A DNA stretch of 64,000 nt from Escherichia phage JN01. Of the stretch, positions 7,632 through 51,281 are shown piece by piece (within the stretch, counting starts at the first letter, position 1; every line of letters starts with the position of its first letter). Location: sequence record MN882542; one strand, given 5' to 3'. The position numbers were made by a program, and so were the translations under genes. The notes under the pieces are model-generated. The model saw only the letters and a list, made by a program, of their open reading frames with translations. It did not search any database and had not been told where the DNA came from.

Positions 7632-8222
7632 TTAAGCTTTGGTCTTAAGTAGGTTCTTAAGTTTTTTGAGATTCATGCTCTCGTCAAACTTAAAACCAAA
7701 TCCATTGACATAATCAATGAACTCGGATTTCTTACTAAGTGATAGCGCGTAACTCATATCAAAGTTATTACTGGTTTCTGCGTCTGGACTAGAGTTCACA
7801 TCAAATGAAATTTCTGTAGGCTCTTGCTTGCTACTTCTCATATTATCAATTAATAGGCATGTATAGTTCGCTGGATAGAAGTTTGCACTGCCATCAACAT
7901 ACCCATACTTATTGTTGTGAATAAGGTTTGAAAATACCTTAAGAAATGTTTCTGAGTCGTGGCATACAAGTTTGAATTGACTGCACTCTCCAAGAGCCAC
8001 TAAAGAGTAAGGGCTTTCACTATCAATGTCGTAGTTTGGATTTGATGTTGTAACCGTCACACGCATCAAGTTATTAGCGATGGTCTTCTGTTTAAAAGAA
8101 TTTGGGACATAGTGAAGACCTCTATCACACTGATTAACTAACTCTTTAAGTAGGTCATTTGCATAAGGTGAATTAATTGATACAGAGCCATCACTATTGT
8201 AATTAAAACTTACTGTTAACAT
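7632..8222 (-). CDS. hypothetical protein
   Basis: 196 aa ORF with ATG start. Confidence 0.6.
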   Translation of the reverse strand: MLTVSFNYNSDGSVSINSPYANDLLKELVNQCDRGLHYVPNSFKQKTIANNLMRVTVTTSNPNYDIDSESPYSLVALGECSQFKLVCHDSETFLKVFSNLIHNNKYGYVDGSANFYPANYTCLLIDNMRSSKQEPTEISFDVNSSPDAETSNNFDMSYALSLSKKSEFIDYVNGFGFKFDESMNLKKLKNLLKTKA

Positions 8223-8449
8223 TTTTCAGTTCTCCTGCGGTTTATAATTTTGCTGCAATAGAGAAACGAAGTAAACTCACTGGAAGAAACCATTAAGTGT
8301 TGTTCACTAGACTGAGCCATTGCCCTGAAATACATTCCAGTCAAAGCATCGTAGTGACTATTCTTTCCAATTGAGGTTATATAGCCATGACTCTTTGCAG
8401 TTTTATATAAATCTATAATATCTGCGATTTCTAATTGGGAACTACACAT
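8216..8449 (-). CDS. hypothetical protein
   Basis: 77 aa ORF with ATG start and AGAGGA Shine-Dalgarno. Confidence 0.5.
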   Translation of the reverse strand: MCSSQLEIADIIDLYKTAKSHGYITSIGKNSHYDALTGMYFRAMAQSSEQHLMVSSSEFTSFLYCSKIINRRRTEKC

Positions 8450-41602: not shown

Positions 41603-42148
41603 TCAAAAGTGCCCTTTTACTTGTGGAACATAAATTTCAAAAGTTGCTTTACCATCCTCTGATGGTTTTGACTGTACCTTTGTAAATACACGACCATCAT
41701 ACAACTTCTCGAAGAAGTTTTCAAAAGGTAAATGCACAGTGACCTCTTCAGTAACTTTATGGAAAACTGTATGAAACACTACATCAGCATACGGTAAAGC
41801 ATTGACAAGGACACCTGCACCACCAATTACAAAGACATCTTCATCAATAGAGCTATCAAGATACTTCAAAAATGCTCCAAACGACTCTTTACTGGCTTTA
41901 GCATACATTACCTCATCTTTGCCAAAGTCTATGCCTAAGTATGGTACAGAGTTTGTTAAGATGAGGTTTGCACGTTCTGGTAAAGGTTTACTACCCAGAG
42001 TCTTAAAAGTCTCATTCCCCATCACTACTAAGTTATTTTTAGTGAGTCTCTTAAACTCTTGCATGTCCTGTTTATGTCGAGGCCACGGCATACCAGTTGG
42101 AGTACCAAACTCCCCATTTTCACCACTTGCAAAGATTAATTTAATCAT
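41603..42148 (-). CDS. folA: dihydrofolate reductase
   Basis: DHFR N-terminal signature IFASGENGEFGTPTGMPWP and VVMGNETF; 181 aa. Confidence 0.85.
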   Translation of the reverse strand: MIKLIFASGENGEFGTPTGMPWPRHKQDMQEFKRLTKNNLVVMGNETFKTLGSKPLPERANLILTNSVPYLGIDFGKDEVMYAKASKESFGAFLKYLDSSIDEDVFVIGGAGVLVNALPYADVVFHTVFHKVTEEVTVHLPFENFFEKLYDGRVFTKVQSKPSEDGKATFEIYVPQVKGHF

Positions 42149-42405
42149 TTTGTAAACCCTTTCTTAATGAACCAGTTGATAACATTCTTCACAGCTTTAT
42201 TGCTATGGTAGATTAAGTGTGGTGTAGGTTGGTATGAACCATAGGCCCAGAATGATAGATGCTCACCACAACCAACACATGTAGTACTTTCTTCAGCTAT
42301 ATGACCATTAACAATCACATGAACTTCACCTTGCAAGTCTGTACACCCACAATGTGGGCAACGGATAGGTGTTCCATCAGACTCATAGCAGTGTTCAATT
42401 TTCAT
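42145..42405 (-). CDS. zinc-ribbon protein
   Basis: Paired CxxC motifs (CPHCGC, CVGCGEH); ATGA overlap downstream. Confidence 0.5.
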   Translation of the reverse strand: MKIEHCYESDGTPIRCPHCGCTDLQGEVHVIVNGHIAEESTTCVGCGEHLSFWAYGSYQPTPHLIYHSNKAVKNVINWFIKKGFTK

Positions 42406-42921
42406 TTATTTAACCTCAAAAACTGGTTCAAGAACCAATATAAAGTCTACACAGTCATCTTCTTCATCCAGAATACCATCAAAGTTCTTAGGAACGAAGT
42501 CGAAGAGGCTCATAACAAAGCAGTCAGAAGTAACCCTTATAGTCCCTCCCATATTCTCTACAGTCAACACTGTACGGCTTTCTTTTACCTCTCTCAGAAG
42601 ATTACTCACAAAGTCATCTAGGAAGTACTTCATTAGTGACTTAAAACCTTTAGGGTAATCTGTACCAGAGTATGTTTCAATCTGAGGTACAAGCTTAACA
42701 TTTATACTAGTCTTTGCTAAGAACGTGCTAGAGAACATACTATCAGGTAACTTGCAAACAGTCTTTCCAGTGCCTTCATGTTCAATCTCAACAAAACCAG
42801 CTTCATCGCCACACGTAACTATTTTAAAAGATGCTTCATTCTCATACTGTGAAGCCATAAACTTTTTAAGCATGACTTTAAGGAAGTCTGCATGAGCATC
42901 TTGTAAGTAGATATCAATCAT
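42406..42921 (-). CDS. hypothetical protein
   Basis: 171 aa ORF with ATG start. Confidence 0.55.
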   Translation of the reverse strand: MIDIYLQDAHADFLKVMLKKFMASQYENEASFKIVTCGDEAGFVEIEHEGTGKTVCKLPDSMFSSTFLAKTSINVKLVPQIETYSGTDYPKGFKSLMKYFLDDFVSNLLREVKESRTVLTVENMGGTIRVTSDCFVMSLFDFVPKNFDGILDEEDDCVDFILVLEPVFEVK

Positions 42922-42934
42922 AATTCATCACCTA

Positions 42935-43294
42935 TTATGGGAACAGACACTTAATGTCATCGTTTTTGAAAACGAAGCTTGTGTAGTTGTGACCGTCAAC
43001 ATCCAGCCAAACAGCCTGAACATCTACACCATCAAGATTGTGGTAAAGCTCTTTGATGAAGTGGTCTTTCACAATCTGGCTGCTGGTTGTTTCCAGCTTA
43101 ATGTTTGAGATTGCTGAACCTACAGCCATATAACCCATTACACGTTTCTTCTCAGTATGCTTAATCTTACCATCTTTGTAAGCCATAATGAGATTGGAAA
43201 GAATCTTCACACCATAATACTTTTCAAGGTGAGTAGGTACACCATAAAAGCCTAATGCGAAGTTTTCAGAGTGGATAATGTTTTCACGTTTCAT
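42935..43294 (-). CDS. hypothetical protein
   Basis: 119 aa ORF with ATG start. Confidence 0.55.
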   Translation of the reverse strand: MKRENIIHSENFALGFYGVPTHLEKYYGVKILSNLIMAYKDGKIKHTEKKRVMGYMAVGSAISNIKLETTSSQIVKDHFIKELYHNLDGVDVQAVWLDVDGHNYTSFVFKNDDIKCLFP

Positions 43295-43295
43295 A

Positions 43296-43595
43296 TTAAT
43301 CTGCCAACCTTAAGTTAAAATTAACACCAAATTTTTCGCATACTTCCAACATAAACTCAAGCGAGACATTACCAGTGAGATTGATTATGTTGGATACACG
43401 AGCCTGAGAGATACCACAAATTTTAGCAACTTGCTCTTGAGAAAGACCTCTGGATTTAATCTCTCTCTTAAAACGATGTGCAACGAAATCTCTCATTTCA
43501 TCTACATCCATTGGACAAATATAACTCTCCATTTCAGCCTCTCTGTCAGCCTCCCAATCATCTTGTGGAGCATAAGGGTCAAAAACCTCATTCAT
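43296..43595 (-). CDS. HTH (XRE-like) transcriptional regulator
   Basis: Helix-turn-helix LSQEQVAKICGISQARVSNI; track start is TTG, moved to ATG 43595. Confidence 0.65.
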   Translation of the reverse strand: MNEVFDPYAPQDDWEADREAEMESYICPMDVDEMRDFVAHRFKREIKSRGLSQEQVAKICGISQARVSNIINLTGNVSLEFMLEVCEKFGVNFNLRLAD

Positions 43596-43800
43596 CTTTC
43601 TTCTTCCGTTTGCGTGAAGTGTCAATCAATAAATCTATGTTTGTAGCCCTAACCTTTTCACGTTCACCGTTAAGATAATCATCAAGAGCCTTTTCAATCT
43701 GTGAATCATCTTGACAGATAACTGTAAAGACTGTAAAGCCGTCTGTATCATCAATTATCTTACCATAACCGCTTCTGGGATGTAACTTTTTAAGAGCCAT
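43588..43800 (-). CDS. hypothetical protein with basic C-terminus
   Basis: 70 aa ORF with ATG start. Confidence 0.45.
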   Translation of the reverse strand: MALKKLHPRSGYGKIIDDTDGFTVFTVICQDDSQIEKALDDYLNGEREKVRATNIDLLIDTSRKRKKKDE

Positions 43801-43801
43801 A

Positions 43802-44185
43802 TCAAATACCTGTGCAGCTTCTGTTTTCTAAGAAATACTCAACACCATACATAGCTTTTTGCATCAAATCTTCTTTAAACTGGATACGATGATTAAGCAT
43901 AGCCTGTACATCAATATCGTCAGGGTGCTTCTCTTTAATATTTGCAGATTGCAGGAAATACTCTGCAAGAACACGATACTGATAGTCGGTCACCTTATCA
44001 GTCATCTCTGTCAAAGACTCTTCAGAGATTGGTTTAAGTAACTCACCATTAGCCAAAGCAACACCTTTTACAATCTGGCAAGTGTCTTCTGGAACACCTG
44101 ATAAGTCCACATTTGGGAGTTCTGTTGCATTGACTGGTAAATTCATTGCCATAACCATTGCAGCAGCTAATAAAATCTTTTTCAT
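43802..44185 (-). CDS. secreted or periplasmic protein (signal peptide)
   Basis: N-terminal MKKILLAAAMVMAMNLPVNA signal-like sequence. Confidence 0.6.
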   Translation of the reverse strand: MKKILLAAAMVMAMNLPVNATELPNVDLSGVPEDTCQIVKGVALANGELLKPISEESLTEMTDKVTDYQYRVLAEYFLQSANIKEKHPDDIDVQAMLNHRIQFKEDLMQKAMYGVEYFLENRSCTGI

Positions 44186-44229
44186 AATGACCTCAAAGTT
44201 ATATTAAATTTTGTATTACATCGAGTATA

Positions 44230-44258
44230 AAAATAAGCTATAACACCTGACTTGTCAA
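44230..44258 (-). promoter_or_regulatory. candidate promoter (TTGACAAGTCAGGTG variant of the TTGACAAGGTG element)
   Basis: Minus-strand TTGACA with TATTTT 17 nt downstream, upstream of the 44185 gene. Confidence 0.35.
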
Positions 44259-44457
44259 CAGATTTTATAGCTTATTTGGCAGATTTTTTATAAGGCTACT
44301 GCCATCCTTCCATACCATACACTACAAGACCCAACAGCACCGAGCCACACACTACCTCACTTAAAAACCCTCTTAAAAGACTCTTAAGTGATGATGGTGA
44401 GTACCCGTTGGTTTATGCTGCTCAGTATACTCACCAAATTTTCTATGTCAACAACTT

Positions 44458-45561
44458 TTATTCATAATCTCGTATAACTAGACCAACAGGGAACTGTAAA
44501 GACCCCTTACGAGTCATCTTCTGGAACTGTACCGTTAAAGGCTTCCCGATAAACTCTTCAGGATGTTCAGCAAGATACTGTTTCTTCTCATGAGTAGTCT
44601 TCCATGAGACATCCACAAAGATGTTAGGGAGAGTCTCTACAACGAACTTACCATGACCACGTTTATCGGTCTTTACACCAGTCACTTTAAACTCTTCAGT
44701 GTGCATCTTCTTATGCTTAATCAAGAAGTATGAACGGTGACAACACTCATAGAAGGAGTCTTCAGAGATTGAACGGTACATTGCACCTTCAAACTTAGCT
44801 TCAACCCACTTATCATGAGCTTCGTCGAACTCTTCCCAAGAATTTACACGACGAGACTTAACAGGGACAACTTTACAGCCATCCCTAAAGTCATTCAGTG
44901 GTGAAGTCTCAATAATATCTCTACGCTCAGGCCACGTTTTAGTACTGTCACAGATATCGTACCAGTAAAACTTGAGCAAGTGTCTGTCAGGATTGTCTTC
45001 ATTTTTAATCATGGAGACGATATCTTCTAAGTCCAACCCATGAGCATAAATCTCTCCATCAAATTCATCAACATCTTTGTGGAGCCTTAACATTGCCATA
45101 ATGTCAGGTATTAGTTCAGTAGGGATTTTGTAAACAGTATTCTCACGAGAATATGCTGTAAATACACTGCCAATACTCAAGTGCCTTGAAATCCTACAAC
45201 GGACACCATCAAGTTTCGGTTGAGCATCAGCAGGGAACTTCAGATACTTTGCATGACTAACCTTTGCAGCATCATGAGCAAGCTGCACACCTACCTTCTC
45301 AGTATTCTGTGCAGACTCTTTTGTGTAAGCATAACCTTTGCGGTCAACTTGCTTTTTATACTTAGCAGCAACTTCAAAGAGAGCTTGCTGTTCAGCGTTA
45401 CGCTCATTCTTTTTACCGATGTTTTTAGGTTCTGCTGTGTACTCTTCAAACATCATCTTGCCATTTTCTTTACCATACGTGGTAACAACTTTGTCACCTA
45501 CAGCAACGCATGACCAGACGTTGAAAGAGCCATCTTTATTTTGTTTGTACAGTATTGTCAT
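44458..45561 (-). CDS. ATP-dependent DNA ligase
   Basis: Adenylation motif I KLDGVR; start moved from track 45597 to ATG 45561 with AGAGGA Shine-Dalgarno. Confidence 0.8.
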   Translation of the reverse strand: MTILYKQNKDGSFNVWSCVAVGDKVVTTYGKENGKMMFEEYTAEPKNIGKKNERNAEQQALFEVAAKYKKQVDRKGYAYTKESAQNTEKVGVQLAHDAAKVSHAKYLKFPADAQPKLDGVRCRISRHLSIGSVFTAYSRENTVYKIPTELIPDIMAMLRLHKDVDEFDGEIYAHGLDLEDIVSMIKNEDNPDRHLLKFYWYDICDSTKTWPERRDIIETSPLNDFRDGCKVVPVKSRRVNSWEEFDEAHDKWVEAKFEGAMYRSISEDSFYECCHRSYFLIKHKKMHTEEFKVTGVKTDKRGHGKFVVETLPNIFVDVSWKTTHEKKQYLAEHPEEFIGKPLTVQFQKMTRKGSLQFPVGLVIRDYE

Positions 45562-45562
45562 T

Positions 45563-45754
45563 TTATTCCTCTGAGTGATACCAAGTGTTGCAAGCATTAC
45601 ATGCGTAAAGCTCTAAGTCATTTTTATCTGGTTTATGAAAACAGTTTGCTCCGCAGTGGCAACGAAACGGCTTTCCACCAACTGTCAGGATGAAAGATTG
45701 AACCTTTCCATCAGGAGTTCGTACAGCATTTTTATGCTTATCTTCTTTGTTCAT
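45563..45754 (-). CDS. zinc-ribbon protein
   Basis: CHCGANC...CNAC cysteine motifs; 63 aa. Confidence 0.5.
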   Translation of the reverse strand: MNKEDKHKNAVRTPDGKVQSFILTVGGKPFRCHCGANCFHKPDKNDLELYACNACNTWYHSEE

Positions 45755-45957
45755 TTTCTCTTACCACCAATCTCTACGTCAATAACCTGAACATCACCAG
45801 CAACATCAAACTTGTGAATGATGCTTTCCACAGTGTAAGTCCAACCCTCGATGCGAACCAATTCACCTTCTCGTGGAACTATTGGGTTACGTTGAGCTAC
45901 GGTTGTAGTGGAGTGAACAACATCATAACAATAGATATAGTTTACTAGGACTTTCAT
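45751..45957 (-). CDS. hypothetical protein
   Basis: Track start 46056 is TTG and overlaps the lipoprotein gene; ATG 45957 with GAGG upstream chosen. Confidence 0.4.
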   Translation of the reverse strand: MKVLVNYIYCYDVVHSTTTVAQRNPIVPREGELVRIEGWTYTVESIIHKFDVAGDVQVIDVEIGGKRK

Positions 45958-45967
45958 CGTGAAAACC

Positions 45968-46204
45968 TCACTGAATAACCGTAGTGTGTGATTGACCATT
46001 TTTGCCATAGCTATAAGATGTTGTTGTTTGAGAGTTTGGACATCTGACAACAACAATATCCCTGCTTATGGCATCACCATGTAACTTATAGACTTTGCAA
46101 TCTTGCATCTCTGGTGGGAGGCTATAAGAAGCGTTTTTGTCCTCGTAAGAGGGATTACAGCCAGATAGAAAAATAACACCAAGCGCAATTACTGCTTTCC
46201 ACAT
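45968..46204 (-). CDS. small lipoprotein (lipobox LSGC)
   Basis: Signal peptide MWKAVIALGVIFLSGC with cysteine at the cleavage position; 78 aa. Confidence 0.6.
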   Translation of the reverse strand: MWKAVIALGVIFLSGCNPSYEDKNASYSLPPEMQDCKVYKLHGDAISRDIVVVRCPNSQTTTSYSYGKNGQSHTTVIQ

Positions 46205-46218
46205 AATACTTCCCCTAT

Positions 46219-46374
46219 TTACTGTTCACGATGTTCTACTTCTCTGTACGTTCGTCGATAGTTTATAATAAGCTGTGCTAATTCGTTGCTTTTAACATCT
46301 GAACGTAGCAGTTGCCAATCAAAACCTTTACCGACCCTTCCATATAAACTAAAGAGTTTTACTTTGCGTTTCAT
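46219..46374 (-). CDS. small basic protein (51 aa)
   Basis: Fills an otherwise empty 150 nt gap; ATG start; weak Shine-Dalgarno. Confidence 0.3.
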   Translation of the reverse strand: MKRKVKLFSLYGRVGKGFDWQLLRSDVKSNELAQLIINYRRTYREVEHREQ

Positions 46375-46391
46375 TTTGGTGTTCCCAATAC

Positions 46392-46604
46392 TCAGATGTC
46401 AATGCTAATACGTTCACCTTTAAGGACTCCTGTGCGGTCCCTTGCAATCTTACCGTCAACAATAAGGATATGCGCAGACCTTAAAGATTCACTGTTAAAA
46501 CCTTTTACGAACTTGCTAGGCATCACCACAATAAGCATTTCTTGAATTAACTCTGGAGTATAGCAGTTGTCGTGAAGTTGCTGAATAACGTCTGAAAGTG
46601 TCAT
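46392..46604 (-). CDS. hypothetical protein
   Basis: Track start is TTG; ATG 46604 with GGAGA Shine-Dalgarno and ATGA overlap. Confidence 0.45.
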   Translation of the reverse strand: MTLSDVIQQLHDNCYTPELIQEMLIVVMPSKFVKGFNSESLRSAHILIVDGKIARDRTGVLKGERISIDI

Positions 46605-46810
46605 TTTTGATGTCTCCAATACTCAATATCAATAAGTTCTTGTGCAATGCTTTTCAGATTACCTTTCAAGAAAACCTTCTCAGAACCTGAAAGAGATGAA
46701 TTGTCAATTAGCCTGTTCATTCTCTCAAACAACTTCTGCTTACGATTCTTGATAGTTTCCTTTGAAGCACCTTTCATCATCGCTGCATGGGTTCTTCCAC
46801 GGTGGCTCAT
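46601..46810 (-). CDS. hypothetical basic protein
   Basis: 69 aa ORF with ATG start. Confidence 0.45.
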   Translation of the reverse strand: MSHRGRTHAAMMKGASKETIKNRKQKLFERMNRLIDNSSLSGSEKVFLKGNLKSIAQELIDIEYWRHQK

Positions 46811-46855
46811 AGTAAACTCTCAATATTTACATGCTCACCTTTTAAGTAGCCTGTC

Positions 46856-47026
46856 TTATCTTTTGCGATTTTTTCCTCCAGCAATAAAGATATCTACTCT
46901 ACGTAGAACTTCAGGATTTACCTTCAAATTCCTACAGCTACTGCAAAGAACAATAAACATCCCTTCAATCTCTTTTTGAGAATAACCTGCACATTGCAAC
47001 TGAACTTCAATCTCTGAAAGTGTCAT
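46856..47026 (-). CDS. small protein (56 aa)
   Basis: ATG preceded by AGGAGG Shine-Dalgarno; below the ORF-track cut-off. Confidence 0.4.
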   Translation of the reverse strand: MTLSEIEVQLQCAGYSQKEIEGMFIVLCSSCRNLKVNPEVLRRVDIFIAGGKNRKR

Positions 47027-47039
47027 GTGACCTCCTATA

Positions 47040-47071
47040 TAAGATATTGTATAAGGTACTCTTCCATGAGC
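47040..47071 (-). promoter_or_regulatory. candidate promoter carrying the TTGACAAGGTG element
   Basis: Minus strand reads ATTAGTATTGACAAGGTGCTC; lies between the polymerase stop and the 47026 small gene. Confidence 0.35.
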
Positions 47072-47087
47072 ACCTTGTCAATACTAA

Positions 47088-49787
47088 TTAGTGTACTTCA
47101 AGCCAGCTTTTACCAACCTTACCAGTACCTGTAACAAGTGTTTCTTTCTTAAGACCTAAGTTTTTAGAAGCTTGTCCATAATACCAGTCAGTAACTGCTT
47201 TCACATCTGCCGTCATACTTTCTGGACATTCCCAGCTTGTTTCATCGTGATATGCGCAGAGCAAACGAGCACCAATAGCTGGTTGACGACCATTCAACTT
47301 CATCAAGCCTTCGTCAATCATACGGCGACAAGCAAGGTTAATTGCCTCATTTTGAATCTGAGCCTCTGAACCCATCAAAAGATAGTTCAACAGTTTGTGT
47401 GGAGATTTACACCACAACCAAGCTCCAGCAACCTTTACAAACCCCCCTTTAGAGATTGCAGCAGTCTTACCAAACACCTCTTCAAGTGCCTTTTTAGTCG
47501 CTTTGTAGTCAGCTTCCAAGTCATCTAGTAGCTTCTTAATCTTAGGCAAACGAATAAAGTAAGTCTGTTTAGTCAGTGCACCTTCCTGAGTAGTTGCAGC
47601 TTTAATCGTCTTAGCAAACTTCTCATCACCTGCACCGAACAGCAGTGCATAGATACCATTCTTAGCTTTCTTACGACCCTTGCTAATCTCATGGAGAAGG
47701 TTCTCATCCTGAGTAGCTCGACAAGTTAAGATATCTTGCTCATCATTCAAGCTAAAGTAAATACTGTTCAGTGTGTGTGCATCAGTCCCTGAATAGACAA
47801 CGTAAAGGTCGTTCTCAGAGTCATAGCGAAGGTACTTATCAATCTCTGGATTGAGGTACTCATCAAAGTGTTTGCAGTAATATCGTCCATCTTCTTGACG
47901 AATAAACTCAATCTCTTCTTTACCTTGCGTTACCGCTTTGGTGAAGTCTTTGTCACCCATAAAGTTACAAAGGAGAACTAGCTGGGCTGAGTTCATATCT
48001 ACAGAGACAACGTTAGTACCTTCCTCACAAATCCACACTGCCCTCATTGGTTCCCCATAGACAGCAGCACCAGACGGTACGTTTACAATACCATATTGTG
48101 TCATACGTCCAGTTGAAGTACCAAATACCATTGCACCAGCACTAAGGCGACCATCAGGACGAATCTGGTTCAACCAACCTTTTTCATCATCCTTTGAGTT
48201 CTCAATAGTTCTGCGTCGGTGCATCAAAGTATAGTACTTAGCAATCTTCTGTCCAAGCTCACCTTCAATCGTATCATAAGATGATTCAGTAAGTTTTGGT
48301 GAAGTACGGATTAAGCAAGGCTCAAGCAAATCTGTGTACTTCTTCACAGACCAGTTATGCTCAATGTACTGGACACCTTCATGTTCAACATAACTCAAAC
48401 CACACCGTTCAACCATCTCCTGCCACTTAGGATGCTTGGTAATCATCTTTTTGTTGTCTTTGAAACGACAAACCTTAACAGGACGACCATCTGAGTCTTT
48501 CTTGTAGTTCCAGTCATCTGGAATCCAACCAACTGATTTCAAGTAGTCTTTCACAACTGCTACCTGAGTCATACGAGAAACTTCGAACTCAATTGGTGTA
48601 TATGGTGCATCAATCAAACCTGTGTAGCGACTTGACTCAAGTTCAAAGTGGTTAACAACATGACTGTTATAGTACTTCACAGTCTTAACTGTTTTTACTG
48701 GCTTCCAGTCTTTGCATTTCTTACCAATCTTTGCATTCAACTCATTGCAAATTGCACGAGCATCCTTCATTGCTACAAAACCTTCCTTGTACTCTTCACC
48801 AGTTACAGAGTTGGTTGGTGTATAGCAATTCCGCTTTTCAATGTTAAAAATCTTTGTAGTTGGCTTACCAAATGGCTTGATTTCATATGTCTGCATCTCA
48901 CCGTTACGTACCTGCTGACGATACTTTGTCTTAGGGTACTTGGTAATTCTCTTCAGTCCATCTGCATGACCAAACGCTTCAACATACTCATTCCAAGCTT
49001 TTGCAAATTCTTCTCCAGTGACTTTACCTTTGGTCTTAATAGTTGGTGGAAGGTGTGGTTCAACTTCTGAAGCAAGCTCATTAGTCAACTTGTCAAGTTC
49101 CTTTACATGAAACTCCATAAGCTCTTTATCAGCTTTCCAACCATTGATAGCCTGTTGACTCATCCAGAAAGATGTTTCTTTAGCTCGCATGTAGGTTTCA
49201 TAAGTGTCTACACCACACTTCTTTAACTTCAGATATTCATTATCCAGTGCACGTTTAGTTTTGGCGTTAATACGGATATCTTCTACAACACGAGTGAAGA
49301 TTTCTGCATTCCACACACCCCAATGTTCAATCTCTGGTTTACGTACACCAACACGAGCACCCCATGCTGCCAAGCCATGAGCACCTTTATAGCCCTTTGG
49401 AGTTGGTCTATCCATCCACTGAACACGAGACTGGATAAGAGAATCCTGAAAGAAATTACCCCACGGCTTACACTTTGGATTATCAAAGTTCCACAAATCA
49501 GGTGCAATGTGATTGAAAACCCACCAGTCATACCCCAGACCATTATGGATGCAGAGTCGTTTTGCCTTTAACGCAAACTCAATACCTTCACGTAAGCCAC
49601 CCTTAATGTACTTGGTATACTTGTGACCGAGGATAGGCTCATCTGTAAATACCCATACAGGTGGCTCTTCATCGTCAGATTTATAGTCTGCGAAAGCCAT
49701 TACGTGCACTTTAGTGAACTCAAGGAGTAAACCATCAGTTTCTGTATCACCAACTAAATGTAAGTTTTTAAAATCTACGTTTTCCAT
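47088..49787 (-). CDS. DNA polymerase, family A, with 3-5 exonuclease domain
   Basis: Exo I motif DTETDGL; motif B KKAKNGIYALLFGAG; motif C YHDE; start at ATG 49787 with GAGGGAG Shine-Dalgarno. Confidence 0.9.
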   Translation of the reverse strand: MENVDFKNLHLVGDTETDGLLLEFTKVHVMAFADYKSDDEEPPVWVFTDEPILGHKYTKYIKGGLREGIEFALKAKRLCIHNGLGYDWWVFNHIAPDLWNFDNPKCKPWGNFFQDSLIQSRVQWMDRPTPKGYKGAHGLAAWGARVGVRKPEIEHWGVWNAEIFTRVVEDIRINAKTKRALDNEYLKLKKCGVDTYETYMRAKETSFWMSQQAINGWKADKELMEFHVKELDKLTNELASEVEPHLPPTIKTKGKVTGEEFAKAWNEYVEAFGHADGLKRITKYPKTKYRQQVRNGEMQTYEIKPFGKPTTKIFNIEKRNCYTPTNSVTGEEYKEGFVAMKDARAICNELNAKIGKKCKDWKPVKTVKTVKYYNSHVVNHFELESSRYTGLIDAPYTPIEFEVSRMTQVAVVKDYLKSVGWIPDDWNYKKDSDGRPVKVCRFKDNKKMITKHPKWQEMVERCGLSYVEHEGVQYIEHNWSVKKYTDLLEPCLIRTSPKLTESSYDTIEGELGQKIAKYYTLMHRRRTIENSKDDEKGWLNQIRPDGRLSAGAMVFGTSTGRMTQYGIVNVPSGAAVYGEPMRAVWICEEGTNVVSVDMNSAQLVLLCNFMGDKDFTKAVTQGKEEIEFIRQEDGRYYCKHFDEYLNPEIDKYLRYDSENDLYVVYSGTDAHTLNSIYFSLNDEQDILTCRATQDENLLHEISKGRKKAKNGIYALLFGAGDEKFAKTIKAATTQEGALTKQTYFIRLPKIKKLLDDLEADYKATKKALEEVFGKTAAISKGGFVKVAGAWLWCKSPHKLLNYLLMGSEAQIQNEAINLACRRMIDEGLMKLNGRQPAIGARLLCAYHDETSWECPESMTADVKAVTDWYYGQASKNLGLKKETLVTGTGKVGKSWLEVH

Positions 49788-49847
49788 TTTTACTCCCTCT
49801 AAAATCATTAACCTCATACATTACTGCAAAAAATTATAAAAAGCAAG

Positions 49848-49877
49848 TTGACAATGTGCTTGACAAGGTGTTAATCT
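49848..49877 (+). promoter_or_regulatory. tandem TTGACA element (TTGACA-N6-TTGACAAGGTGT) with TAATCT
   Basis: Near-identical to the element at 8692; divergent region between the polymerase and the 50045 gene. Confidence 0.45.
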
Positions 49878-49983
49878 TTGCGAAGTGGGTTTTTACTTAA
49901 AAGGTTACTTAACAGTTTAACTATACAGATACTTTAAAACTCTTAAAAGATTATTTAATAGCTTTTAAAAAGCTTTAAAGTAT

Positions 49984-50000
49984 AACGTATAGAATACGTT
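49984..50000. promoter_or_regulatory. palindrome AACGTAT-AGA-ATACGTT (operator-like)
   Basis: Perfect 7 bp arms between the promoter element and the 50045 start. Confidence 0.35.
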
Positions 50001-50044
50001 AAGATAAAAGATTAAAACTTAATAGTTACTTAAAAGAGGCTTAC

Positions 50045-50467
50045 ATGCAGAAAATGTTTGTTCACCCAGACATAGCTGACTTTGTTAGAGCTTTGCAGAA
50101 GTTGGAAGAACTTGACATTGCTGCTCAACGGGAATATGCTCACCATCACAGGAGAATGGTTGATATACAACATGAAATAGAGTTGTCTGAAAACTATGAA
50201 GATGACTTAAAATGCTCTGTGTTTGAGCATATGAAAGATGTTGCTACAGCGAGACGTAAAGCTAAAGACACAGTTGCTTTACTAGATTCTCTTAAAAAGA
50301 GGTTGCAAAGTGGTACAGACCTGTGTAATCTAGCGTCACTGATTAACGATGTTGAAACTTCTTGGGATAGACATTACTATCCACGTTCTGAAAAGACACT
50401 TGACTTTTCTTCATCAGAAAACTTAAAATGTTCTAGAAAGAAACTTAACCAACTGAGAGAGAAATAA
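50045..50467 (+). CDS. hypothetical protein
   Basis: 140 aa; ATG with AAGAGG Shine-Dalgarno. Confidence 0.6.
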   Translation: MQKMFVHPDIADFVRALQKLEELDIAAQREYAHHHRRMVDIQHEIELSENYEDDLKCSVFEHMKDVATARRKAKDTVALLDSLKKRLQSGTDLCNLASLINDVETSWDRHYYPRSEKTLDFSSSENLKCSRKKLNQLREK

Positions 50468-50468
50468 T

Positions 50469-51281
50469 ATGAATACTACTGTAGACCAGATGCTTGAAGA
50501 AAAAGGTATTGACGAAGCATTCTTAATCAATGCCGTAGAAAGCATGGCTATGATTCTTCGTGGAAACAACTACACAGAACAGTTTATGCCTGCAAGCTAT
50601 AACTTGCCTAAAGACAAGTCTGATAACGGTGCTTTTGCAGAACAGGTTAATATGATGCTGTGTGATAAAACACTTGCTTTAGCATCTATCGTTGTAGGTG
50701 TTGATGCTCTTGCAGAGTTCATTTTCTATGAGATGCAGAAAAATGACTATATTGCCATGACCTCTGAAGAAAAAGACTCGCTACTGCTCTTAGGTTATGA
50801 TGAGCTAGTTGACCTGTTAATTTCGTCAACAAGTGCTGTTATGGCTGCTCTTGAGAAGCGAATGGAAGAGAAGCTGTCACGATATGAAAAACTTGATTGG
50901 GGTGTAGAAGAGTTAAACCCACGAATCAAAGAGATTATCCAGCAAACTAAAGACTCTTTAGCAGAAGCTGTGAAAGATGATTCTGTAGCTGATGTAGAAC
51001 CACTACAGGTGAAGGTTGCTCTGATGATTCCAGCTATCTCTACAATGATGAATATCGTTGCACTAATCCAACTTTCTCAGATGTTGGGTGTAACCATTGA
51101 GTTCGTTGAGGAGATGACTGGTGGTGTCAGTATGCAAGCAATCAATGATGTTTTGGTAAACATTGGCGCTTCAATCATTGAAGAGAAGCTACGTATCAAC
51201 TTCGGTGATGATTTTGTGAAGCAAATCTCAGCTATTGCTGAAAAAGAGCACTCACAAATTACTAGTGACCAACTGCACTAA
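50469..51281 (+). CDS. hypothetical protein
   Basis: 270 aa ORF with ATG start. Confidence 0.6.
   Translation: MNTTVDQMLEEKGIDEAFLINAVESMAMILRGNNYTEQFMPASYNLPKDKSDNGAFAEQVNMMLCDKTLALASIVVGVDALAEFIFYEMQKNDYIAMTSEEKDSLLLLGYDELVDLLISSTSAVMAALEKRMEEKLSRYEKLDWGVEELNPRIKEIIQQTKDSLAEAVKDDSVADVEPLQVKVALMIPAISTMMNIVALIQLSQMLGVTIEFVEEMTGGVSMQAINDVLVNIGASIIEEKLRINFGDDFVKQISAIAEKEHSQITSDQLH

What the first reader, a model, noticed from the sequence alone, without database searches (positions are those of the whole stretch)
45968..46204. Small lipoprotein in the replication block, a candidate receptor-blocking or superinfection-exclusion factor
The 78 aa ORF has a clear signal peptide and lipobox (LSGC) and lies away from the lysis and structural genes. 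Small phage lipoproteins in this kind of location include T5 Llp and the Cor family, which inactivate the outer-membrane receptor to block superinfection and protect progeny. An o-spanin is less likely because no adjacent i-spanin is present and the protein is not proline-rich.
Basis: partly seen in the sequence, partly recalled or inferred. Interest (0 to 1): 0.55.

Follow-up and report, generated by a model that had tools for sequence, protein, structure and literature searches.

The report
Widespread small phage lipoprotein, function unknown
This is a real, conserved gene for a tiny membrane-anchored lipoprotein made by a Felix O1-type phage; it belongs to a large, uncharacterised phage family (DUF4884), is not related to the known receptor-blocking lipoproteins Llp/Cor and is not a lysis spanin, so its suggested role in keeping out rival phages is plausible but unproven.

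Summary
ORF 45968..46204 (-) encodes a 78-aa protein with a canonical lipoprotein signal peptide (lipobox LSGC, Cys16), a Shine-Dalgarno site and tight operon packing. It lies in the DNA polymerase-to-ligase block of a Felixounavirus (97% identical to Escherichia phage HMD-P10) and is under purifying selection (dN/dS about 0.15).

It belongs to Pfam DUF4884 / phrog_902, function unknown. That family has at least 488 clusters at 50% identity, about 90% with a lipobox, and a conserved Cys36/Cys55 pair. Members occur in Ounavirinae, Vequintavirinae, T5-like Vibrio phages, T4-like Aeromonas phages, jumbo phages, a P22-like prophage and two bacterial islands that carry defence genes.

It is not an o-spanin, because the lineage has its own i/o-spanin pair elsewhere. 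It is not an Llp/Cor member:
- only the signal peptide aligns with T5 Llp;
- it falls in a different PHROG, with no fold match;
- it is not next to a receptor-binding gene;
- its mature domain is much better conserved than the tail fibres;
- Felixounaviruses use the LPS core, not a TonB-dependent transporter.

Best guess (about 0.4): a stand-alone periplasm-facing outer-membrane lipoprotein that binds a conserved envelope component and gives receptor-independent exclusion or protection. No experiment or structural analogue supports a specific target. Interest is moderate.

The parts
45968..46204 (-). Complete coding sequence (78 codons plus TGA) of the prolipoprotein, a DUF4884 / phrog_902 member
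   Evidence: ORF list and sequence. phrog_902 at E=5e-17. PF16225:DUF4884 tag on homologues. dN/dS 0.15.
46160..46204 (-). Signal peptide, residues 1-15 (MWKAVIALGVIFLSG), predicted to be removed by signal peptidase II
   Evidence: Rule-based lipoprotein signal. Pfam LPAM_1 lipid-attachment-site hits in 27 family members. Cleavage is inferred, not shown.
46157..46168 (-). Lipobox L13-S14-G15-C16. Cys16 is the predicted lipidated N-terminus of the mature protein. Asn at +2 predicts Lol sorting to the outer membrane in enterobacteria.
   Evidence: C16 is invariant in 117 aligned sequences. 152 of 160 members have a lipobox. The +2 sorting rule is established knowledge, and localisation was not tested.
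45971..46159 (-). Mature 63-aa domain: a linker of about 15 residues, then a small antiparallel beta-sheet
   Evidence: AlphaFold2 models with pLDDT 70 and 68 and strands at 19-22, 37-42, 50-55, 58-66 and 69-75. Independent BFVD models of relatives superpose with TM 0.78-0.81.
46097..46099 (-). Cys36 codon (TGC), one half of the predicted intramolecular disulfide
   Evidence: Invariant column. It sits at the start of strand 2, opposite Cys55 at the end of strand 3. The disulfide is inferred.
46040..46042 (-). Cys55 codon (TGT), within the family signature VVRCPNSxTTT
   Evidence: At least 90% conserved. The motif was used to retrieve 31 viral loci.
46209..46216 (-). Shine-Dalgarno-like AGGGGAAG, 4 nt upstream of the ATG
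   Evidence: Sequence. The Center for Phage Technology (CPT) annotators mark a ribosome-binding site at the equivalent place in Citrobacter phage Maleficent.

Best explanation
Shown:
- The gene is real and constrained.
- It encodes a 78-aa prolipoprotein of the DUF4884 / phrog_902 family.
- It sits in a co-directional run of small genes between the DNA polymerase and DNA ligase genes of a Felixounavirus.
- It has no co-conserved phage partner gene.

Inferred. It is transcribed with the early/middle replication genes and exported by Sec. It is lipidated at Cys16 and cleaved by signal peptidase II. [quoted passage not shown] There a linker of about 15 residues presents a 50-residue beta-sheet domain, stapled by a Cys36-Cys55 disulfide, to the periplasm.

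The same domain is conserved in unrelated phages of very different hosts, and it does not track tail-fibre divergence. I therefore propose that it binds a broadly conserved envelope component rather than the phage's own receptor. Candidates are a periplasmic or outer-membrane machine, or peptidoglycan.

The most likely pay-off is receptor-independent protection of the infected or carrier cell against further phage or DNA entry, that is, superinfection exclusion in the broad sense. It works like Llp/Cor only in being a periplasm-facing lipoprotein. It is not a member of that family, and the target is unknown.
For: - Real gene and lipoprotein.
- Family and spread: phrog_902; DUF4884 tags; 488 clusters; 586 phage records across Ounavirinae, Vequintavirinae, Demerecviridae of Vibrio, Acinetobacter and Klebsiella phages and jumbo phages; T4-like Aeromonas phages and Vibrio JSF10.
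- Stand-alone: across 21 loci from different lineages the lipoprotein is the only shared gene.
- Not coupled to receptor-binding proteins: against Maleficent, tail fibres are 49-66% identical, the mature lipoprotein 82.5% and the polymerase 94%.
- Contexts that fit a protective accessory ('moron') gene: an island inserted in comM of Hylemonella gracilis beside an ABC-3C / PDC-M68 candidate defence system; an island with AbiEi/AbiEii; the nin-like region of a P22-like prophage between DnaB and YbcO/RusA; a T4 Imm-type superinfection-immunity gene 4.5 kb away on a jumbo-phage contig.
- Precedent: small periplasm-facing phage lipoproteins that act on envelope proteins to exclude phages (PMC9586334).
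Against: - There is no experimental datum for any member of the family (literature searches).
- The model confidence is only moderate (pLDDT 68-70).
- The defence-island associations are three single cases found by a motif-restricted scan. They are not a statistical enrichment.
- An early periplasmic lipoprotein could equally serve host takeover, envelope stabilisation, lysis timing or counter-defence.
- About 14% of family members have Asp at +2, so outer-membrane anchoring may not be universal.
Confidence: 0.4

Rival explanations
1. Another envelope-directed function that is not exclusion. The lipoprotein would bind a conserved periplasmic or outer-membrane host factor to favour the infection itself. 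Examples are blocking an envelope-stress sensor or periplasmic protease, inhibiting a cell-wall hydrolase, stabilising the envelope against premature lysis or lysis from without, and neutralising an envelope-located defence.
For: The anatomy is the same as for the best explanation: early block, stand-alone, periplasm-facing, and a domain conserved across hosts. A second exported early protein of unknown function lies 1.8 kb away (43802..44185), which suggests a wider envelope programme. Most carriers are virulent phages with short latent periods.
Against: Copies in bacterial islands next to defence genes and in a prophage are easier to explain by a benefit to the carrier cell than by host takeover. 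There was no match to known inhibitor folds such as lysozyme inhibitors. No PADLOC match was found either, which is neutral.
Confidence: 0.35
2. One reading: an Llp/Cor-type factor that inactivates the phage's own outer-membrane receptor. This would block superinfection by the same phage and protect progeny from debris.
For: The size, lipobox, intramolecular Cys pair and early expression resemble T5 Llp (77 aa).
Against: - No homology beyond the signal peptide.
- A different PHROG, 902 against 1119.
- No fold match.
- Not adjacent to a receptor-binding gene, whereas llp abuts pb5.
- Much better conserved than the tail fibres.
- Shared by phages with unrelated hosts and receptors.
- The Felixounavirus receptor is the LPS core oligosaccharide, which a 63-aa periplasmic lipoprotein cannot jam the way Llp jams the FhuA plug (PMC13196588; PMC9586334).
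Confidence: 0.07
3. A lysis component: an o-spanin or u-spanin, or an accessory lysis regulator.
For: It has a lipobox. One distant relative gives a weak hit to phrog_456, 'Rz-like spanin', at E=1.7e-5, confined to the signal-peptide and N-terminal region.
Against: - Ounavirinae carry a separate overlapping i-/o-spanin pair near rIIB. CPT annotates it in Maleficent, and it is conserved in 299 records including Felix O1.
- CPT labels the homologue of this gene only 'membrane lipoprotein'.
- There is no adjacent membrane protein.
- The mature part is 6% Pro.
- The gene lies in the early/replication block, 5 kb from the holin and 40 kb from the endolysin.
Confidence: 0.05
4. Not a functional gene: a chance ORF with a fortuitous lipobox.
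For: None beyond its small size.
Against: Purifying selection, a ribosome-binding site and operon packing, hundreds of homologues with a conserved lipobox and Cys pair, and a reproducible predicted fold.
Confidence: 0.01

Closest known systems
Pfam DUF4884 (PF16225) / PHROG phrog_902, uncharacterised small phage lipoproteins
   Same: Full-length profile match (phrog_902, E=5e-17). It shares the lipobox, the conserved Cys36/Cys55 pair, the LPxE(L/M)xDCK and VVRCPNSxTTT..GK motifs, the 75-90 aa length and the predicted beta-sheet fold.
   Different: Nothing sets it apart. It is an ordinary member. The family has no assigned function, and the PF16225 model is absent from the local Pfam copy, so that tag could not be re-derived.
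T5 Llp and the Cor lipoproteins of T1, phi80 and N15 (phrog_1119), superinfection-exclusion lipoproteins that jam FhuA from the periplasm
   Same: Small size (77-78 aa precursor), a lipoprotein signal, an intramolecular Cys pair, early expression and a likely periplasm-facing outer-membrane location. It may work in the same general way, by binding an envelope protein from the periplasmic side.
   Different: The mature domain shows no sequence similarity. It is in a different PHROG and has no fold match. It is not adjacent to a receptor-binding gene and does not co-vary with the tail fibres. Its carrier phages use LPS or unrelated receptors.
o-spanins (lambda Rz1 type)
   Same: A small outer-membrane lipoprotein encoded by a phage of a Gram-negative host.
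   Different: It has no i-spanin partner, is not proline-rich and lies in the early block. The lineage has its own spanin pair elsewhere.
T4 Imm and Spackle (Sp), early envelope proteins of a virulent phage that block DNA entry or tail lysozyme of superinfecting phages
   Same: This is a functional analogy only: an early-expressed, stand-alone envelope protein of a virulent phage that would act independently of the adsorption receptor. An Imm-type gene lies 4.5 kb from a family member on one jumbo-phage contig.
   Different: There is no homology. Pfam gave no Imm_superinfect or other hit. Imm is an inner-membrane protein and Sp is a soluble periplasmic protein, not lipoproteins (own knowledge).
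Lambda Bor and other prophage 'moron' lipoproteins
   Same: A small lipoprotein carried as a stand-alone accessory gene. One relative sits in the nin-like region of a P22-like prophage.
   Different: No sequence match to any Pfam family, including Bor. Most carriers are virulent phages.

Membership tests
DUF4884 / phrog_902 | Significant full-length match to the family profile | tested here: met
   phrog_902 at E=5.3e-17 over residues 1-76. Close and distant homologues carry the precomputed PF16225:DUF4884 tag. The Pfam model itself is missing from the local library.
DUF4884 / phrog_902 | N-terminal lipoprotein signal with an invariant lipobox Cys | tested here: met
   Cys16 is invariant. 152 of 160 and 218 of 252 members pass lipobox rules.
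DUF4884 / phrog_902 | Conserved Cys pair and the DCK...VVRCPNSxTTT...GK signature in a mature domain of about 60 aa | tested here: met
   Alignments A1 to A3.
Llp/Cor superinfection-exclusion lipoproteins (phrog_1119) | Sequence homology of the mature domain to Llp or Cor | tested here: not met
   BLASTP and hhalign against T5 Llp align only the signal peptide. Llp matches phrog_1119. The target gave no phrog_1119 hit even at E<=10.
Llp/Cor superinfection-exclusion lipoproteins (phrog_1119) | Gene adjacent to, and co-varying with, the receptor-binding protein gene | tested here: not met
   llp abuts pb5 in T5. Here the gene lies between the polymerase and ligase genes, 6 kb from the tail-fibre genes. 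It is 82.5% conserved where the fibres are 49-66%.
Llp/Cor superinfection-exclusion lipoproteins (phrog_1119) | The carrier phage uses a TonB-dependent transporter (FhuA or similar) as receptor | tested here: not met
   The window is a Felixounavirus. Felixounaviruses need the LPS core (PMC13196588). This comes from the literature, not from an assay of this phage.
Llp/Cor superinfection-exclusion lipoproteins (phrog_1119) | Structural similarity to Llp | tested here: inconclusive
Llp/Cor superinfection-exclusion lipoproteins (phrog_1119) | Binds and inactivates the receptor; blocks adsorption | not testable with these tools
   Needs expression and adsorption or plating-efficiency assays.
o-spanin | Encoded overlapping, embedded in or adjacent to an i-spanin gene within the lysis gene set | tested here: not met
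   Both neighbours lack membrane helices. The lineage's true i/o-spanin pair lies near rIIB and is absent from the window.
o-spanin | Outer-membrane lipoprotein signal | tested here: met
   Lipobox LSGC with Asn at +2.
o-spanin | Short, proline-rich, largely unstructured mature part | tested here: not met
   4 Pro in 63 residues. A beta-sheet domain is predicted.

The most novel reading that the evidence does not exclude
DUF4884 would be a pan-proteobacterial family of phage lipoproteins that exclude rival phages, or other incoming DNA or toxins, independently of the adsorption receptor. It would do this by jamming one highly conserved envelope machine from the periplasmic side, for example TonB or Tol energy transduction, Lpt or Bam, or by binding peptidoglycan. 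The family would have been repeatedly captured by prophages and bacterial defence islands as a one-gene defence.
Probability: 0.2. Interest if true: 0.7.

Novelty: new variant of a known kind. Interest (0 to 1): 0.4.

Why it matters
Only a few small phage lipoproteins have been characterised: Llp, Cor, Bor and the o-spanins. The exclusion examples are tied to one receptor.

This gene represents a much larger family with no known function. The family has at least 488 sequence clusters, occurs in at least six phage lineages whose hosts range from Vibrio to Acinetobacter, and has occasional copies in prophages and bacterial islands. Its conservation pattern argues for a shared envelope target rather than a receptor-specific one.

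Finding that target would reveal either a generic exclusion or defence mechanism or a new point of vulnerability in the Gram-negative envelope. Felixounaviruses, Vequintaviruses and T5-like phages are common in therapeutic and biocontrol cocktails, so an exclusion factor that acts across phage types would also matter for cocktail design.

For this window on its own, the gene is an ordinary member of a catalogued family.

Tried and rejected
1. Pfam, NCBIfam, PADLOC and a PDB sequence search with the protein and its relatives gave nothing beyond lipobox-type hits. The precomputed PF16225 tag could not be reproduced because the model is not in the local Pfam copy.
3. Two giant proteins, P0024 and P0099, looked as if they carried repeats of the domain. 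P0024 is low-complexity repeat sequence, which I judge a spurious match. P0099 was not inspected.
4. I looked for a conserved partner gene across 21 loci and found none.
5. The promoter and terminator scan of 42000-50500 found no more sites than shuffled sequence, so the transcription unit is inferred only from gene orientation and spacing.
6. I looked for diversifying selection. The overall dN/dS of 0.15 is similar to that of the neighbouring small genes. Site-wise tests were not run.
7. Literature searches with the terms Felixounavirus + lipoprotein, DUF4884, PF16225, phage-encoded lipoprotein, and superinfection exclusion + lipoprotein found no functional study. The BME3 paper's spanins belong to a different genus.
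8. The first attempt at search for related loci with the 117-sequence alignment failed because it had no conserved stretch. A 13-sequence alignment worked.
9. A homologue search seeded with the Hylemonella protein added nothing.
10. The copy in the UNVERIFIED record GE_vB_B3 appears frameshifted and I ignored it.

Full report
**1. What is there**

The window is part of a Felix O1-type myovirus genome. Region 43000-50000 is 97% identical to Escherichia phage HMD-P10, and 261 phage records match it, almost all Felixounavirus or Ounavirinae.

It lies at 45968..46204 on the minus strand, with an ATG start, a TGA stop and 78 codons.

The N-terminus MWKAVIALGVIFLSG|C has these features:
- a basic residue, K3;
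- an uncharged hydrophobic core;
- the lipobox L-S-G-C with Cys16, and Asn at +2.

It satisfies a PROSITE-type lipoprotein rule, which I wrote from memory. With a hydrophobicity filter it is the only lipoprotein-signal ORF in all six frames of the 64-kb window.

An AGGGGAAG Shine-Dalgarno site lies 4 nt upstream of the ATG. The preceding gene stops 14 nt upstream of that ATG, and the following gene starts 10 nt after the stop. The gene is therefore embedded in a tightly packed, co-directional run that extends from the DNA polymerase gene (47088..49817) to the DNA ligase gene (44458..45597) and beyond. A consensus promoter and terminator scan found no more sites than shuffled sequence. Co-transcription with the replication genes is therefore inferred from layout only.

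**2. It is a constrained gene of a large family**

Nineteen distinct alleles from Ounavirinae genomes give a pairwise dN/dS of about 0.15. That is comparable to the neighbouring small genes (0.07-0.15) and to the polymerase (0.085).

The protein matches PHROG phrog_902, 'unknown function', at E=5e-17. Its homologues carry the precomputed Pfam tag PF16225, named DUF4884 by the tool. I could not reproduce that tag with the local Pfam library, which appears to lack the model. NCBIfam, PADLOC and PDB sequence searches found nothing.

An exhaustive HMMER search of 1.84 billion representatives found 488 clusters at E<=1e-3. Nearly all are 75-90 aa long and align over the full length. One of two giant proteins that matched (P0024) is low-complexity sequence, which I judge a spurious match; the other (P0099) was not inspected.

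In a 117-sequence alignment the lipid-attachment Cys16 and Cys36 are invariant. P30, C55, P56, T60 and K68 are at least 90% conserved. The signature reads LPxE(L/M)xDCK(V/I)(Y/F)xL ... VVRCPNSxTTT ... GK. A lipobox is present in 152 of 160 members and in 218 of 252 by the stricter rule.

**3. Structure**

Two AlphaFold2 runs, on the precursor and on the mature form, used 117 and 150 homologues. Both give a moderate-confidence small antiparallel beta-sheet of five strands behind a linker of about 15 residues (pLDDT 70 and 68). Cys36 opens strand 2 and Cys55 closes strand 3 of the same hairpin, so a disulfide is geometrically plausible. This is an inference.

Foldseek against the BFVD viral models returned only relatives:
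- a Yersinia jumbo-phage protein (TM 0.81);
- 'lipoproteins' of the T4-like Aeromonas phage Aeh1, Vibrio phage JSF10 and Acinetobacter phage ME3;
- an uncharacterised protein of the T4-like Aeromonas phage phiAS5.

This supports the fold and widens the host range, but it gives no functional lead.

**4. Distribution and context**

A tblastn search of 50,697 phage genomes finds the gene in 586 records:
- Felixounavirus, Mooglevirus and Erwinia Ounavirinae;
- Vequintavirinae (A5-4, and Pectobacterium CB7, where it is annotated 'putative lipoprotein');
- T5-like Demerecviridae of Vibrio (295 records);
- Acinetobacter and Klebsiella myoviruses;
- 350-kb jumbo phages.

A T1-like coliphage, Henu8, also lists a DUF4884 protein (PMC12210894).

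In each lineage the gene sits among small early genes. Across 21 loci from different lineages it is the only gene they share. It therefore works without a dedicated phage partner encoded nearby.

It is not confined to virulent phages:
- One relative lies in the nin-like region of a P22-like prophage, between DnaB and YbcO/RusA.
- One lies in an island with AbiEi/AbiEii.
- The single hit in 185,579 species-representative bacterial genomes came from a motif-restricted scan. It lies in an island that interrupts comM of Hylemonella gracilis, next to an ABC-3C / PDC-M68 candidate defence system.
- On a 233-kb jumbo-phage contig, a T4 Imm-type superinfection-immunity gene lies 4.5 kb away.

These are anecdotes, not statistics. 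They fit a gene that benefits the cell carrying it.

**5. What it is not**

o-spanin. Citrobacter phage Maleficent (Ounavirinae) was annotated by the Center for Phage Technology (CPT). It has an overlapping i-/o-spanin pair near rIIB, and its homologue of this gene is labelled only 'membrane lipoprotein'. That spanin pair is conserved in 299 records, including Felix O1 itself. It lies outside this window. The flanking ORFs here have no membrane helix, and the mature protein is 6% proline.

Llp/Cor.
- T5 Llp was retrieved from NC_005859. It aligns with this protein only over the signal peptide, both by BLASTP and by profile comparison, where 18 columns aligned.
- Llp falls in phrog_1119, 'Cor superinfection exclusion protein'. 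The target gave no such hit even at E<=10.
- llp lies directly beside the receptor-binding gene pb5. Llp acts by binding the FhuA plug from the periplasm (PMC9586334).
- This gene is 6 kb from the tail-fibre genes. Against Maleficent its mature domain is 82.5% identical, while the two tail fibres are 49-66% and the polymerase is 94%.
- Felixounaviruses depend on the LPS core oligosaccharide rather than on a TonB-dependent transporter (PMC13196588).
- A domain this well conserved in phages of Vibrio, Aeromonas, Acinetobacter, enterobacteria and a betaproteobacterium cannot be tuned to one receptor's loops.

**6. Most likely mechanism**

Steps shown: a real gene, a lipoprotein signal, family membership, an independent (stand-alone) gene, and decoupling from the receptor-binding proteins.

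Steps inferred:
- Sec export, lipidation at Cys16, signal peptidase II cleavage and Lol sorting to the outer membrane, because residue +2 is Asn (established sorting rule);
- DsbA-type formation of the Cys36-Cys55 bond;
- periplasmic display of the beta-sheet domain;
- binding to a broadly conserved envelope component.

I rank the outcomes as follows:
- receptor-independent exclusion or protection, about 0.4. This rests on the precedent of Llp, Cor, Imm and Sp and on the prophage and defence-island contexts;
- another envelope-directed role, about 0.35. Examples are a stress-sensor or hydrolase inhibitor, envelope stabilisation and counter-defence;
- an Llp-like block of the phage's own receptor, about 0.07;
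- a lysis role, about 0.05;
- a chance ORF, about 0.01.

No tool result identifies the target.

**7. Novelty and verdict**

The gene is an ordinary member of a catalogued but uncharacterised family. Relative to characterised systems it is a distinct family of small phage lipoproteins, and it fails the Llp/Cor membership tests. I therefore rate it a new variant of a known kind.

Interest is moderate (0.4). Nothing here would astonish a specialist. The family's breadth and its conserved signature do make it a good and cheap experimental target: one 237-bp gene, expression with a phage-panel assay, and a multimer-prediction screen.

Noticed in passing
window 43802..44185 (-): A second exported early protein. 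It is 127 aa with a classical signal-peptidase-I type signal (MKKILLAAAMVMAMNLPVNA|TE). It matches phrog_4332 (unknown function), is conserved in Ounavirinae and shows strong purifying selection (dN/dS 0.07). Together with the lipoprotein it suggests an early programme aimed at the periplasm.
   Followed up: partly
window 46392..46619 (-) and 46856..47026 (-): Two small genes just upstream of the lipoprotein (75 and 56 aa) both match phrog_4230. They appear to be near-tandem paralogues of unknown function, separated by one small gene (46601..46810).
   Followed up: no
window 44186..44457; L001 4187..6145: This is a 272-nt gap between the ligase gene and the exported-protein gene. It holds the best sigma-70-like site of the region (TTGACA-16-TATACT on the minus strand, 44451..44424). 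In HMD-P10 the same gap carries about 1.7 kb of extra DNA with two hypothetical genes, so it is an insertion/deletion hotspot.
   Followed up: partly
window 45563..45754 (-): A 63-aa ORF with CxC and CxxC motifs (zinc-ribbon-like), immediately upstream of the ligase gene. It overlaps the ligase ORF as listed from its first ATG by about 35 nt. It is annotated 'DNA ligase' in HMD-P10 but matches phrog_5768, unknown function. This is probably an annotation carry-over.
   Followed up: no
L042 5800..13300 (Hylemonella gracilis ATCC 19624, NZ_AEGR01000062.1): The comM (Mg-chelatase-like) ORF ends after 355 aa. It is followed by an island holding an HTH regulator, a second putative lipoprotein (257 aa), the DUF4884 lipoprotein (7983..8261), a secreted Exo_endo_phos protein and an ABC-3C / PDC-M68 candidate defence system (MC6, CTD10, DUF2326).
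   Followed up: partly
L043 6437..6697 (GCA_000438925.2, AUSC02000007.1): A DUF4884 lipoprotein in a P22-like (pro)phage, between the DnaB helicase gene and ybcO/rusA. This is the classical nin-region site for accessory genes. It shows the family is not restricted to virulent phages.
   Followed up: partly
L006 3552..3779 (JGI 3300026473, 233-kb contig): A T4 Imm-type superinfection-immunity gene (PF14373) lies 4.5 kb from the DUF4884 gene on a presumed freshwater jumbo-phage contig.
   Followed up: no
family-wide: The +2 residue after the lipid Cys varies widely: N 25, S 23, E 22, D 21, T 20, G 15 and others. About 14% have Asp, the enterobacterial inner-membrane retention signal. Which membrane anchors the protein may therefore differ between members or hosts.
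   Followed up: no
L002 (MG969406.1, Salmonella phage GE_vB_B3, UNVERIFIED): In this record the lipoprotein, ligase and polymerase genes are split into several frames. These look like sequencing frameshifts in a 109-kb 'Ounavirinae' record.
   Followed up: no
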